DNA of 64,000 bases from NCBI RefSeq assembly GCF_006345805.1, contig NC_043021.1:24180001-24244000 (forward strand). Reading direction: 5' to 3'. The DNA comes from Octopus sinensis (Eukaryota). The notes under the pieces are model-generated. The model saw only the letters and a list, made by a program, of their open reading frames with translations, was not told the origin of the DNA and made no database searches. Both the position numbers and the translations under genes were made by a program. Positions 1,533 through 60,767 of the stretch are shown piece by piece (position 1 is the first letter of the stretch; every line of letters begins with the position of its first letter).

Positions 1533-2428
1533 AATTATAATCGCCACATGGCTTATAATGTAACCGTTGTTATAAATGGCGATGGCGATGTAGTCGATAC
1601 TGCTGCTGATGATGATGCAGATTTCTGTCTTTTTAGTGCTTCATCAGTAGTTTTATTGTTCGTGTCGGATACAAGGGTTCCTCGATTTTCTATTGTTTCT
1701 GTGGCCTAATGATATTCTTTTTCATTAGTTCCCTGCTTCGATGTTTGATGCCGAGTTGTATTTCGATGGTGTGCGGCGTGGGTGTATTGTCCTTGTTGCC
1801 GTCTCTGTTTTTCTTTTTATGAGATTCATTATTTTTGACGTATAAATGAGGTTGTGTTTTATACATACTATAATTATTGTATGTACGACAGTATCTATGG
1901 TAGTGATTAGCTTTTTGTCTTTGTTTTGGAGGTAAATTGATTTCACTGAATATTTTTGAAGTTTGAAAAACTTGCATTTCTCATTGATGCGTGAAAATAT
2001 CGTGTTGTTAATTACTAGGTTGTCTGTAGAAAGTTGGGCAAATGTTTACTAAACTGTGATAAGTTATGTGCATGGAGCCCATGATACTAATATATATATA
2101 TATATATATATATATATTATATATATATATATGTATGTATGTATGTTTGTATGTATGTTTTTATATATATGTTATATATATATATGTATATATATATATA
2201 TAATATATATATATATATATATATATATATATATATATATATATATATATATATATATATATATATATGTAGTGCTATTTCTATGTGGAATTATCGTTGG
2301 CGGCTACCGGTGGAGCTATTTCTAGCACTAGAGTTAACATATTCAAAGTTGGCTCTCTTATATTTACGGATAAATATGAATTTGTATCCCCGGTTTATTG
2401 TGCTAGGTCGCTCGGTGTTAAAATAAGG

Positions 2429-3316
2429 GGATCTTTTCAATTCTGAAGCCAGGACCACAGATCTTTCTACTTAACTAAATATTCTGAAACTTCGTATGCT
2501 GATAGAGTCTAGCAAAACAAGACACAGGTTGGAACTAGTTTATTTGAGAAAAATCTATTTTATGACTTTAATCGTAGATTAAAACTGCGAATTTTAACCA
2601 ATCAGATTGTTTGTTTTCATGTGTAAAACTTGACTGCATTCTATTAGTGTGACGTAGAAAGCGCTTTTGTGACGTACTAACGTTCGGAAAACTGTAAACA
2701 AACACAGAACGTAACGGCAGACGAAATACGGCTACGCATTTCGCCCGGCGTGCTAACGTTTCTGCCAGCTCTTTGCTTTTTTAATATTAAATTTCTTGCC
2801 TTTTGCACAAATAAATACAATAAGTGAAATGAAACGCATTAGCTTAGAAACGAAATCTTGTTAGAAGCCTCGTCACTGAGATGCCACTTCTTAATAGCAA
2901 ACGAAAGCAAGTACTAACAGAATGGAAACATTTTCAATTTAATACATGTGGCTTATTAACTAGTTTTAAATATTGTTATTAGAAGGTGGCTGACTATAGG
3001 ATCCTGGAAACATGAGTACGTTAAATAATTAGAAGGAAATTTCACGGAGACATGCGGCTTGTTTACATTTAAGATGTTTAATACGTCACCAAATTGGTGG
3101 TCGAGACGGAGTAAATAAAATAAAGCCGAATGACGGAATATCATTGGTTAAAATTCTAATTATTAAACAACGTTAAACTTAGAAGTTACAATTCCGTTTT
3201 CATTCTGGTTTACAATTAAGTTTACTTTTGACACATTCTACCAGTATACGAAGTTTCAAATTGTTTGGTTCAGTAGGAAAAATTTGAAAAAACTGGCTTC
3301 AGAATTGAAAAGATCC
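2429..3316. mobile_element. Non-autonomous DNA transposon (MITE), 24-bp TIR, 8-bp TSD, Merlin-like
   Basis: TIR GGATCTTTTCAATTCTGAAGCCAG / CTGGCTTCAGAATTGAAAAGATCC; TSD AAATAAGG at 2421-2428 and 3317-3324; empty site visible in the second repeat copy near 3804. Superfamily is inferred from GG ends plus 8-bp TSD. Confidence 0.85.
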
Positions 3317-3529
3317 AAATAAGGGTATTATTGAATTAATATCTATAATTTTATTCACCCTCATTATTGAATTTATTAATTTGATACGCTGCAGTAAATA
3401 TTACATGCGGTATTCACTTCCACTTAGCATTTACTTTCGGCGGGGAATTCGTAACTACAACCCTGAATGTAATTGACCAGACCACATGGTTAATCGTCGC
3501 CTGTATGGGTCTGATTAATTATATTGACA

Positions 3530-3608
3530 AATGTTGCTGACGAATCATAGACAATTATGTAAGTATAATCTGCATATTTTGTTAATGAGGAAACAATTGT
3601 ACAACATT
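3530..3608 (+). ncRNA. Type I hammerhead ribozyme
   Basis: AATGTTG-CTGACGA-[long helix II]-GAAA-CAATTG-TA^CAACATT; helix I 7 bp perfect, palindromic helix III, GUA cleavage triplet; first helix II pair is an A.G mismatch. Confidence 0.85.
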
Positions 3609-4311
3609 AATCCATTATTTAGTTGTATTTCAATTTCATTGCGTTGATTGTAGTGCTATTTCTATGTGGAATTATCGTTGGCGACTATACCGGTGGAGCT
3701 ATTTCTAGCACTAGAGTTAACATATTCAAAGTTGGCTCTCTTATATTTACAGATAAATATGAGTTTGTATCCCCGGTTTATTGTGCTAGGTCGCTCGGTG
3801 TTAAAATAAGGGTATTATTGAATTAATATCGATAATTTTATTCACCCTCATTATTGAATGTATATATACACACACACACACACACACACACGTATATATA
3901 AAAACATACTTGTACGCACATGAGCGTGTGTGTATTTGTGTGTAGAAAAGAAGTGGTTTACTTTGACACAAGTAGGAATATAGGAAAATTAGCCTTGAGG
4001 TTGAAAATGCAGTCAGCCGACCAGTAACATCTGAAAGTGCCTAATCAGAACTGGAACTGTGTTTTAAATGCTTCAAATACAAAACAATATCGGTTTGAGA
4101 AATCGTGCAAATTTCTCATTCGAATGAATAAAGCAAACAATGAACAAATCTACCTCGCATAACACGAGAGATCCTGTAAAGAAATTTTCCTTTGAATCTT
4201 CATCACGTCTAATTACGAACCTGTTAAGCTCTCGAGTTTCTGTCATGTATTATTTCTCTGAAATTTATCGAATATTTCAACTTTCCCTATTTCTTATTAC
4301 TGTGAAGCGTA

Positions 4312-5281
4312 CCGTAAATCCTCGAGTATAGTCCGCCCTTGAGTATAATGCGAAGGGGATTTTTAGGGGGCTGTACCTCTGAAAAACCTAAACCTTGTGT
4401 ATAATACGCACTCCTTCTCTAACTTAAGTCAAGGAGGTCTATTTAACGTCCTTGGTTTGTTAAAATGTATACGGTAACGTCCTTTATTATTGCCTTCTTG
4501 CCTTCTTTATCTTTGGCATCTGTTTAATTTCATCTTTATTTCTTCTCCATAACCGGACATTGCTTTCGTCAACATCAAATTTTCTTCAGGCGGCCCTATT
4601 ACCATGCTCTTCAGCATATGATATAACTTCAAGTTTAAACATAGCTGAATAAGATCTACGAGGCATTTTATGGACATGTAATGTATAAAATGTTTTATTG
4701 GAGATTAATGTACAGGTTTAAGTCACGCTTATAAAAAACCCTAGTAAAGCCCCACAGTAGTTCAAACATTTAATACTGGTATTCAATTAAGTATCTATTG
4801 TTTGCCACGGTAATGATGCAAACAGCCCATACAAACAGCAGGATGGACTATTTAGCTCTAAACTATTAAGCACAATTCGTGCGTAATTAAACCAGCAGCA
4901 CCTAGTCGAGCAAACACTTCCGCGCATGCGTAATACAATAATGGTGATGTTCTTAACTGTTATATGGAAATGTAAATATGTTTGCAAATTGTTTTTTGTT
5001 ACATGTTATTCTGTGTTCTGAATACTTTTATTTTGATAAATGTTGTTTACTGCAAGTTATGGATGATTCTTTTATGACTTCATTGCTTTCAGGCTTAGCT
5101 TAAGGTATTTTCACGCCCGACATCAGAAAATGCGTCTGAATAAACATTGCCGGACAGCAAATAGAGACTCGGACATTGCTTAGAAAATATTTTTCATTTG
5201 AAACCTCGTATATAATACGCACTAGGGACTTTGATCTTTAAATTTTGGGAAAAAATGCGGATTATACTCGAGGATTTACGG
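4312..5281 (-). mobile_element. Internally deleted pogo/Tigger-type DNA transposon
   Basis: TIR CCGTAAATCCTCGAGTATA / TATACTCGAGGATTTACGG, TA at left end; minus-strand relic from 4666 MPRRSYSAMFKLEVISYAEEHGNRAA*RKFDVDESNVRLWRR resembles the pogo N-terminal (Brinker-type) DNA-binding domain. Confidence 0.85.
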
Positions 5282-58730: not shown

Positions 58731-59223
58731 TAACTTTAAAAATGTTTGATAGATTGCGGTTAATTCATTCTCTCTTACCTGTTTGTGTCAGCCTTCCAAT
58801 TGCTGTTTTTACTGAGATCTCCCTTTTTAGTAGAAGAAATAGCTATAACCCTTTGACTGCTATTCTAAATTCGGTATGTGGTAAGGCAATTCGTTGCTGA
58901 ACCCTTATTGCTTAGTATTACTTAAATTTTCCTCAAATGAGGCTTTTACATGCCGAAGACTACTTGGTGTAATTGATAATTATTCCAAATTAATTAATTT
59001 CACCCTTCATTATTACGGATAACCATATTTTATCTCAGTAGATGACTACAGCATCTTGTTTTGGCTACACGCGGGGTGGAAGGGGCTGTTGACACAATCG
59101 TTTCATTCACAAATTTGAATTCGGTGATACTAGTTGAGGGATTCTGCTCGCTCTGATACTGAGTTGAGTTGGTACCTCCTAGTATCTCAAAATTCAATAT
59201 ATAATCATTTATGATTATAGTAT

Positions 59224-59330
59224 TCCACGCTGAAGAGAAAAGAAGTTTCGGTAAGATAGAATTATTTAATATTTAATATTTTAATTCTTATGCTTTCCTA
59301 AAACTTGATTTCGAAACGTACGTCCGTGGA
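59224..59330 (+). ncRNA. Type I hammerhead ribozyme (array copy 4)
   Basis: Identical to 58624-58730. Confidence 0.9.
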
Positions 59331-59825
59331 TAACTTTAAAAATGTTTGATAGATTGCGGTTAATTCATTCTCTCTTACCTGTTTGTGTCAGCCTTCCAAT
59401 TGCTGTTTTTACTGAGATCTCCCTTTTTAGTAGAAGAAATAGCTATAACCCTTTGACTGCTATTTCTAAATTCGGTATGTGGTAAGGCAATTCGTTGCTG
59501 AACCCTTATTGCTTAGTATTACTTAAATTTTCCTCAAATGAGGCTTTAACATGCCGAAGACTACTTGGTGTAATTGATAATTATTCCAAATTAATAATAT
59601 TTCACCTCATTATTACGGATAACCATATTTTATCTCAGTAGATGACTACAGCATCTTGTTTTGGCTACACGCGGGTGGGAAGGGGCTGTTGACACAATCG
59701 TTTCATTCACACAAATTTGAATTCGGTGATACTAGTTGAGGATTCTAGCTCGCTCTGATACTGAGTTGAGTTGGTACCTCCTAGTATCTCAAAATTCAAT
59801 ATATAATCATTTATGATTATAGTAT

Positions 59826-59932
59826 TCCACGCTGAAGAGAAAAGAAGTTTCGGTAAGATAGAATTATTTAATATTTAATATTTTAATTCTTATGCTTTCC
59901 TAAAACTTGATTTCGAAACGTACGTCCGTGGA
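59826..59932 (+). ncRNA. Type I hammerhead ribozyme (array copy 5)
   Basis: Identical to 58624-58730. Confidence 0.9.
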
Positions 59933-60767
59933 TAACTTTAAAAATGTTTGATAGATTGCGGTTAATTCATTCTCTCTTACCTGTTTGTGTCAGCCTTCCA
60001 ATTGCTGTTTTTACTGAGATCTCCCTTTTTAGTAGAAGAAATAGCTATAACCCTTTGACTGCTATTTCTAAATTCGGTATGTGGTAAGGCAATTCGTTGC
60101 TGAACCCTTATTGCTTAGTATTACTATATATATATATATATATTTATATATATATATATATGTATGTATGTATGTATATATGTATATATATATGTATATG
60201 TATATATATGTATGTATGTGTGTGTGTATGTATCTACCTACTGTCTTCTTTTGTAAAGCATGAAAAGTGATTTACTGGCGAATGCATTAGTAAGCACAAT
60301 AATTATCGTCTGTTTGCTACCATTTTCAAACAAGTCGCATTTTAGACGCCGAAAGATATTGATTTCTGAAAAGTTCAAGTCGCAGTTTAACGAAACTCGC
60401 CGATCATAATAGCGTAGCGTAAAGAATAGGAATGGAATACTTGAGGAAGGCAAAAGAAAGCAGACACTAAAAGCTCGGATCATCTCCATCTTAGCGTTTG
60501 AGTCAAATCGCAAACAGGACATACTACTTAACTGTGCACGGAATATCATATCTGTTGCAAATTCTTCAATATTCCCATAGACTGTCCTTGTCATTTCGAT
60601 ACTATTTTTATGCTAAACGTGAGTAACCTTCGATAATGTGACGTATTACGAATCAAATAAATGCTCCTTGTCATCATCAGCATCATAATTATTATTATTA
60701 TTATTATTATTATTATTATTATTATTATTATTATTATTATTATTATTATTATTATTATTATTATTAT

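What the first reader, a model, noticed from the sequence alone, without database searches (positions are those of the whole stretch)
2269..60124. Several divergent hammerhead element families share (TA)n targets and a common 3' terminal motif
Seen: elements at 2269-3860, 13632-13886, 15251-15430, 21273-21668, 31338-31788, 43110-43680, 52520-54414 and 57249-60124 all abut (TA)n. Several end in a related motif before the TA run: TTCACCCTCATTATTGAATG, TTTACCCATTATTATTATTGACAG, TTCACCCTTCATTATTACGGAT, TTCATCCATT, TTTATCCTATATTAAT. Inference: a conserved cis signal for RT recognition or priming plus microsatellite-specific targeting, which could also help explain the long TA tracts.
Basis: partly seen in the sequence, partly recalled or inferred. 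Interest (0 to 1): 0.75.

Follow-up and report, generated by a model that had tools for sequence, protein, structure and literature searches.

The report
Hairpin-marked Penelope and retrozyme ends
These are pieces of a known kind of jumping gene (Hydra-type Penelope elements) and of small non-coding ribozyme repeats that likely ride on them, sitting in TA repeats as already published; the shared end motif is real only for one related group, where it is one arm of a predicted RNA hairpin that likely tells the copying enzyme where to start.

Summary
Partly confirmed. The eight stretches belong to seven hammerhead-bearing families. D and F are 3' ends of protein-coding Hydra-clade Penelope-like elements (E is a relative of D); A, B, C and G are tandem non-coding retrozymes. 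TA targeting is real: in a 1-Mb systematic sample, 17 of 21 terminal hammerheads have (TA)5+ within 300 nt downstream, against a 17% background. It is already published for Hydra elements, an octopus family included. Each family ends at two fixed points about 90-150 nt apart; 57 of 63 inverted insertions pair one short with one long end, none two alike. It is missing in D and E, differently placed in F, and absent from 35 of 35 other hammerhead-linked ends; a looser motif failed a held-out test. Where present, it is the 3' arm of a hairpin with compensatory changes, 9-17 nt before the junction; a similar hairpin precedes most short ends of that group. It is likely a reverse-transcription start signal (untested; no partner enzyme found). 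TA tracts beside these ends are not longer. Earlier scan notes reported the Hydra/retrozyme reading and the short/long rule on other DNA.

The parts
2269..3859 (+). Family A retrozyme, about 1.4 units of a 487-bp repeat, ending at the long end
2429..3316 (.). Unrelated MITE inserted into A: terminal inverted repeats and 8-bp target duplication (2421-2428, 3317-3324)
3537..3601 (+). Type I hammerhead of A (core to predicted cut site)
3797..3846 (+).
13632..13884 (+). Family B retrozyme fragment (family unit about 571 bp): 3' half of the hammerhead, internal deletion of about 90 nt, long end with hairpin
15251..15430 (-). Family D pLTR stub of a protein-coding Hydra-type element: hammerhead 15368-15291, short end at about 15251; no reader motif
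21274..21668 (.). Family E inverted insertion (relative of D): minus arm with long end at 21274, plus arm with short end at about 21668; hammerhead core mutated in this copy
31358..31788 (.). Family F inverted insertion (pLTR of a second endonuclease-coding family): minus arm with hammerhead 31633-31561 and long end at 31358, plus arm with short end at 31788
43113..43675 (.). Family G retrozyme (unit about 463 bp) inverted insertion without its hammerhead: long end at 43113, short end at 43675, low-copy filler 43324-43609 between the arms
52523..54077 (-). Fragment of a family D ORF with N-rich linker, CxCx5C motif and GIY-YIG endonuclease (52952-53227), 3'-truncated; inverted pLTR piece 53973-54077 (+) ends at the long end
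54124..54363 (+). Separate family B copy, long end with hairpin, followed by another repeat's end (54364-54414) instead of (TA)n
57250..60124 (.). Family C retrozyme array, 600-bp units 98-99% identical: minus arm 57250-58389 (2 hammerheads, long end), plus arm 58388-60124 (3 hammerheads, short end)

Best explanation
The stretches are 5'-truncated or inverted insertions of Hydra-type Penelope-like retroelements and of non-coding hammerhead tandem repeats (retrozymes) that likely borrow a Penelope-type enzyme, which would cut (TA)n DNA and likely start copying the RNA at either of two fixed internal sites. Shown: the family identities, the TA bias, two fixed ends per family about 90-150 nt apart, and the short+long pairing in inverted copies. 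Inferred: both ends of a double-strand cut are primed, one at each site, which gives head-to-head arms with a tail on one side only; insertions with one arm use one site. This structure is likely what the enzyme reads, while other families use other end sequences.
For: Hydra motifs (RWK, DKT, CxCx5C, CxxC, CxH) in the 922-aa ORF of the window's endonuclease family. That copy is flanked by TA and has a short end on its inverted arm and a long end on its main arm. F has an endonuclease directly upstream in 6 of 30 loci; A, B, C, E and G have none directly upstream in the loci held. 209 of 217 TA-followed 3' ends fall at two sites (overlapping loci not merged). 57 of 63 inverted insertions are long+short, 0 long+long, 0 short+short. 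9 of 9 long ends of the A/B/C/G group fold into a hairpin ending 9-17 nt before the junction, and all 36 closing-stem cells pair, with double changes at two positions and G-U at two. A Penelope/Poseidon protein cuts and extends both strands at AT-rich DNA and starts at two sites near a stem-loop in vitro.
Against: No protein-coding family with A/B/C/G-type ends was found among the groups inspected. RNAalifold on automatic alignments predicted 0 pairs for the long ends and 0 for the short ends. The hairpins were picked per sequence and the families are related, so the shuffle value 0.005 is not a probability. The G long-end hairpin is no stronger than shuffles (z 0.2). The short-end hairpins of G and of two relatives were read by eye; the best computed fold differed. 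A looser motif frozen beforehand failed on held-out ends: 3 of 10 against 133 of 671 (p 0.43). D and E short ends and F lack the hairpin at that distance. In five families one arm was selected for having the long end. The window's ORF piece has a minus-arm end at neither site. No empty site was seen.
Confidence: 0.72

Rival explanations
1. The motif and hairpin are an inherited relic of one retrozyme lineage. The ends are fixed by TA-like microhomology or by distance from another signal, and the hairpin serves RNA folding or circle stability.
For: The families share sequence by descent (B/C 78%; a common upstream block in the short-end alignment). Junction letters often match TA. Other families with equally fixed ends lack the motif.
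Against: The stem is kept through double changes at a nearly constant distance from the end across families that no longer align. A similar structure recurs before the short end. AT-rich RNAs offer many other TA microhomologies that are not used.
Confidence: 0.25
2. The retrozymes are mobilised by another TA-targeting enzyme, such as a Naiad-clade Penelope element or a LINE, not by Hydra proteins.
For: Octopus Naiads also prefer (TA)n and share tails and inversions. No Hydra partner with matching ends was found.
Against: Canonical hammerheads are typical of Hydra and lacking in Naiads. The retrozyme tail lengths (about 90-105 nt) match those of the Hydra-type families D and E here. Naiad ends were not examined.
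Confidence: 0.2
3. Inverted copies arise from one priming event followed by snap-back or twin priming on the same molecule, or from later DNA rearrangement, not from two primings at two sites.
For: Arms meet at variable points, sometimes with filler DNA (G in the window).
Against: The second arm ends at a fixed site different from the first in 57 of 63 cases, and either end can be on either side. Multi-unit arrays occur on both arms.
Confidence: 0.15
4. One reading: one sequence motif is common to all TA-targeting hammerhead elements, and these elements build the long TA tracts.
For: The motif is at the long end of 4 of 7 window families, with a partial look-alike in F.
Against: 0 of 25 and 0 of 10 other ends carry it; 2 of 739 generic flanks; tracts at element ends are not longer.
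Confidence: 0.04

Closest known systems
Hydra clade of Penelope-like elements (Craig et al. 2021, PMC8557442; seen: passages, sections 11 and 12, supplement search and part 2 of 59)
   Same: C-terminal GIY-YIG endonuclease with CxCx5C linker, RWK and DKT motifs, canonical hammerhead near the 3' end, (TA)n preference (the supplement lists Hydra-1_Obim from an octopus, with 4 copies ending at one site), 5' inversions, tail on one side only.
   Different: Tails here are about 90-150 nt, not the 30-40 bp given for PLEs. The family D element is about 4 kb with a long Asn-rich linker. Hammerheads have long stem II inserts (46-77 nt) that the Rfam scan of the window missed. No terminal hairpin signal was seen in the parts read.
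Non-LTR retrozymes of animals (PMC7229834 and PMC7761336, passages; bioRxiv 10.64898/2026.07.22.740005, parts 1-3 of 5, supplements not seen)
   Same: Non-coding tandem units of a few hundred bp, each with a type I hammerhead and a palindromic stem III; Penelope-like elements are proposed as the mobilising partner.
   Different: The review passage says these repeats show no conserved motif pointing to their partner. Here four families carry the Penelope integration footprint (TA target, two fixed ends, inverted arms) and a conserved predicted hairpin at the ends.
Poseidon element PAc in vitro (Frangieh et al. 2024, PMC11167929; parts 1-2 of 4)
   Same: Two internal reverse-transcription start sites that define the tail, located at a stem-loop; both strands cut and extended; AT-rich targets.
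   Different: [quoted passage not shown]

Membership tests
Hydra-clade PLE (families D, F; E by similarity) | Single ORF with RT and C-terminal GIY-YIG endonuclease | tested here: met
   922-aa ORF at L041 with YRDD and a C-terminal endonuclease; the window piece hits Pfam GIY-YIG weakly, E 0.0036, below the cut-off; the full ORF has no Pfam RT hit
Hydra-clade PLE (families D, F; E by similarity) | CxCx5C linker, RWK and DKT motifs, CxxC and CxH in the endonuclease | tested here: met
   positions 794, 30, 117 and 885, and CxH near the C-terminus of the L041 ORF; CxCx5C also in the window piece
Hydra-clade PLE (families D, F; E by similarity) | CCHH motif absent from the endonuclease | tested here: inconclusive
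   none apparent by eye; not aligned to reference endonucleases
Hydra-clade PLE (families D, F; E by similarity) | Canonical hammerhead in the sense pLTR, and (TA)n insertion | tested here: met
Hydra-clade PLE (families D, F; E by similarity) | Placement in the Hydra clade of an RT tree | not tested
   no labelled reference proteins were held; the homologues carry no clade names
Hydra-clade PLE (families D, F; E by similarity) | Generally short (under 3 kb); descriptive | tested here: not met
   the L041 main body is about 4.2 kb
PLE tail | Extension often present at only one end of the insertion | tested here: met
   57 of 63 inverted insertions
PLE tail | Length 30-40 bp | tested here: not met
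   about 89-105 nt in A, B, C, D, E and G, about 150 in F
Non-LTR retrozyme (A, B, C, G) | Tandem non-coding units, each with a type I hammerhead | tested here: met
   C: 600-bp arrays of up to about 15 units with no ORF of 100 aa; A about 487, B about 571 and G about 463 bp, seen as partial tandems only; no endonuclease directly upstream
Non-LTR retrozyme (A, B, C, G) | Self-cleavage and circular RNA in vivo | not testable with these tools
   only contigs were offered, no raw RNA reads

The most novel reading that the evidence does not exclude
A lineage of animal retrozymes carries a duplicated RNA start signal (a stem-loop closed by GGU/ACC-type pairs, then CUUAU and about 10 unpaired bases), once before each of two start sites about 100 nt apart. 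The signal loads a dimeric Penelope-type reverse transcriptase in trans so that each end of a cut TA microsatellite is primed from a different site. This would be the missing cis element that ties non-LTR retrozymes to their enzyme and would explain Penelope tails and inversions.
Probability: 0.35. Interest if true: 0.68.

Novelty: new variant of a known kind. Interest (0 to 1): 0.4.

Why it matters
How non-coding hammerhead repeats spread in animal genomes, and why Penelope insertions have one-sided tails and inversions, are open questions. Family C is young (98-99% identical copies), has two precisely mapped ends and a predicted hairpin before each, so it is a ready substrate for an in vitro test with a Hydra-type protein. 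The headline observation, hammerhead elements in (TA)n, is already known.

Tried and rejected
Rfam scan of the window: no hammerhead, only microsatellite-driven miRNA matches; the long stem II likely hides the ribozymes. A looser motif scored 17 of 25 against 37 of 200, but it was written after those ends had been seen. Frozen and applied to ends of Rfam-found hammerheads it failed (3 of 10). That set was mostly one family, so it is a weak test; in it the hairpin-position score did exceed controls (p 0.003, non-independent ends), and 30 of 51 had TA within 300 nt. RNAalifold on MAFFT alignments gave no consensus structure. The empty-site test at element G on contigs of 4 DNA runs was uninformative: no listed contig bridges the site. 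No RNA holder listed. The search for a protein-coding partner with A/B/C/G-type ends found none; it was not exhaustive. A second large random sample was not obtained, so the held-out test stays small. Rejected: LTR retrozyme (no LTR pair with primer-binding site seen), and satellite by unequal crossover alone (it does not give fixed ends at dispersed sites). Literature searches showed no paper on a terminal hairpin or a strict short/long rule; subscription papers, Repbase entries, most of the Craig supplement and the bioRxiv supplements were not seen.
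Full report
Setting. The window is G000:C25:24180001-24244000 of a 2.72-Gb animal genome, likely an octopod from the named protein relatives. It has 12.7 (TA)6+ runs per 10 kb, against 10.7 in a 1-Mb systematic sample of 100 stretches, so TA runs are common everywhere and a chance test was needed.

Observation. Most element ends touch (TA)n; A and E end on the right in a short TA stub or (CA)n. An intact hammerhead core is in 4 of 8 stretches. E's core is mutated, B begins inside the ribozyme, and G and 52520-54414 lack it, though their families have one. 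52520-54414 is a composite, and A contains an unrelated MITE with an 8-bp duplication. B and C are related, as are D and E.

What the families are. The ORF piece at 52952-54059 has a CxCx5C linker and a GIY-YIG domain. A full relative, L041, encodes 922 aa with RWK, DKT, YRDD, CxCx5C, CxxC and CxH, the features given for the Hydra clade of Penelope-like elements. Its 3' region carries the family D type of hammerhead. Family F follows another such endonuclease in 6 of 30 loci. A, B, C and G are tandem non-coding units of about 487, 571, 600 and 463 bp with no endonuclease directly upstream in the loci held, which fits non-LTR retrozymes.

TA targeting. In the 1-Mb sample a relaxed descriptor found 28 hammerheads against 1, 0 and 0 in shuffles. 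Counting only the last ribozyme of each arm, 17 of 21 evaluable arms have (TA)5+ within 300 nt downstream; the background is 0.174 (p 4e-10). In the Rfam-found set 30 of 51 did (mostly one family). This is published: almost all Hydra families insert in (TA)n, and the supplement lists an octopus family with a hammerhead and that preference.

Two ends. In every family the TA junctions cluster at two points: 209 of 217 TA-followed 3' ends (overlapping loci not merged, and best-scoring hits favour the long end in five families). The distance is about 89-105 nt, and about 150 nt in F. After dropping 18 overlapping or duplicate loci, 57 of 63 inverted insertions have one long and one short end, 6 have an end elsewhere, and none has two alike (four are the window's own copies). 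In A, B, E, F and G one arm was selected as long; the partner was short in 53 of 57 and never long. In C, selected on the unit alone, 4 of 6 were long+short. This sharpens the published one-sided tail and matches the two start sites and two-strand extension seen in vitro for a Poseidon protein.

The motif. It sits at the long end of A, B, C and G and of relatives met by chance in the sample. It is absent from D and E, and F has only a partial look-alike 4 nt from the end. It is in 0 of 25 and 0 of 10 other hammerhead-linked ends and in 2 of 739 generic TA flanks. A looser version failed once frozen (3 of 10 against 133 of 671). Where present it is the 3' arm of a hairpin: 9 of 9 long ends of this group give a best local hairpin ending 9-17 nt before the junction, closed by GGTG/CACC, GGTA/TACC, GATA/TATC, GGTG/CACT or GGTG/TACC and followed by CT- or CA-rich spacer. 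Seven of 9 have z below -2.5; A has -1.6 and G 0.2. All 36 closing cells pair, but the stems were chosen per sequence and the families are related. The short ends of A, B, C and three of five relatives show a comparable computed hairpin 8-18 nt before the junction; in G and the other two it was seen by eye while the best fold differed, and D, E and F short ends show none of note. RNAalifold on automatic alignments found no pairs; the hairpins differ in length and the arms were not aligned.

Mechanism. Shown: families, target bias, fixed ends, pairing rule, predicted hairpins. Inferred: a Penelope-type protein cuts both strands of (TA)n, binds tandem or circular RNA and primes each DNA end at a different one of two sites, giving head-to-head arms with a tail on one; a one-armed copy uses one site. 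The hairpin-plus-spacer likely positions the start in the A/B/C/G group. The partner enzyme was not found: none of the coding groups inspected has such ends, including a young family with intact 727-aa ORFs. A Naiad partner is not excluded.

TA tracts. Tracts at hammerhead-linked ends are not longer than others (median 14 against 16 nt; 17 against 1679 tract ends), and the largest clusters of TA flanks belong to other repeats. Hammerhead-less truncated copies are not counted in the 17. Whether insertion duplicates TA units could not be told, because no empty site was resolved.

Standing. The headline is known biology. The long tails, the near-strict pairing and the predicted terminal hairpin were not seen in the papers read or the five searches made. 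Earlier notes of this scan reached the Hydra/retrozyme reading and the short/long rule on other DNA; I had both before reading them. Interest 0.40; new variant of a known kind.

Noticed in passing
window 43324-43609 and 44917-45233: The inverted G insertion holds, between its arms, about 290 bp that is 88% identical to a low-copy stretch 1.3-1.6 kb downstream; possibly filler copied from nearby DNA when the two arms were joined.
   Followed up: partly
window 2429-3316; related ends at 27013-27098: MITE with terminal inverted repeats and an 8-bp target duplication (hAT-like by recalled rule) inserted into retrozyme A.
   Followed up: partly
L401 and L402; many near-identical hits: A young Hydra-type family with intact 727-aa ORFs, a 1.2-kb 3' UTR, a short-stem hammerhead and two apparent ends about 70 nt apart; a good candidate for biochemistry.
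   Followed up: partly
L311-L370: The hammerheads that Rfam finds best in this genome belong mostly to one further family, with two apparent ends about 120 nt apart and a different end motif.
   Followed up: partly
L041 2440-5205 and window 53231-53374: Family D proteins carry a long Asn-rich linker encoded by (AAT)n-like repeats between RT and endonuclease.
   Followed up: no
window 13585-13614: A hairpin followed by CTAG directly before a TA run, like a Helitron 3' end (recalled pattern); the same end recurs in L251 and L299.
   Followed up: no
window 236-673 and 7 or more other copies: An abundant SINE-like repeat of about 430 bp with an internal TA/CA microsatellite supplies the largest clusters of TA flanks in the sample.
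   Followed up: partly
window 54462-55264 and 55201-56006: An 800-bp tandem duplication (98.6%) bounded by TA runs, containing a LINE fragment; a local duplication or an assembly artefact.
   Followed up: no
window 61205-63841 (-): Large non-LTR retrotransposon RT fragments, with shorter 3' pieces at 7439-7879 and 8463-8843 ending at (ATT)n runs.
   Followed up: no
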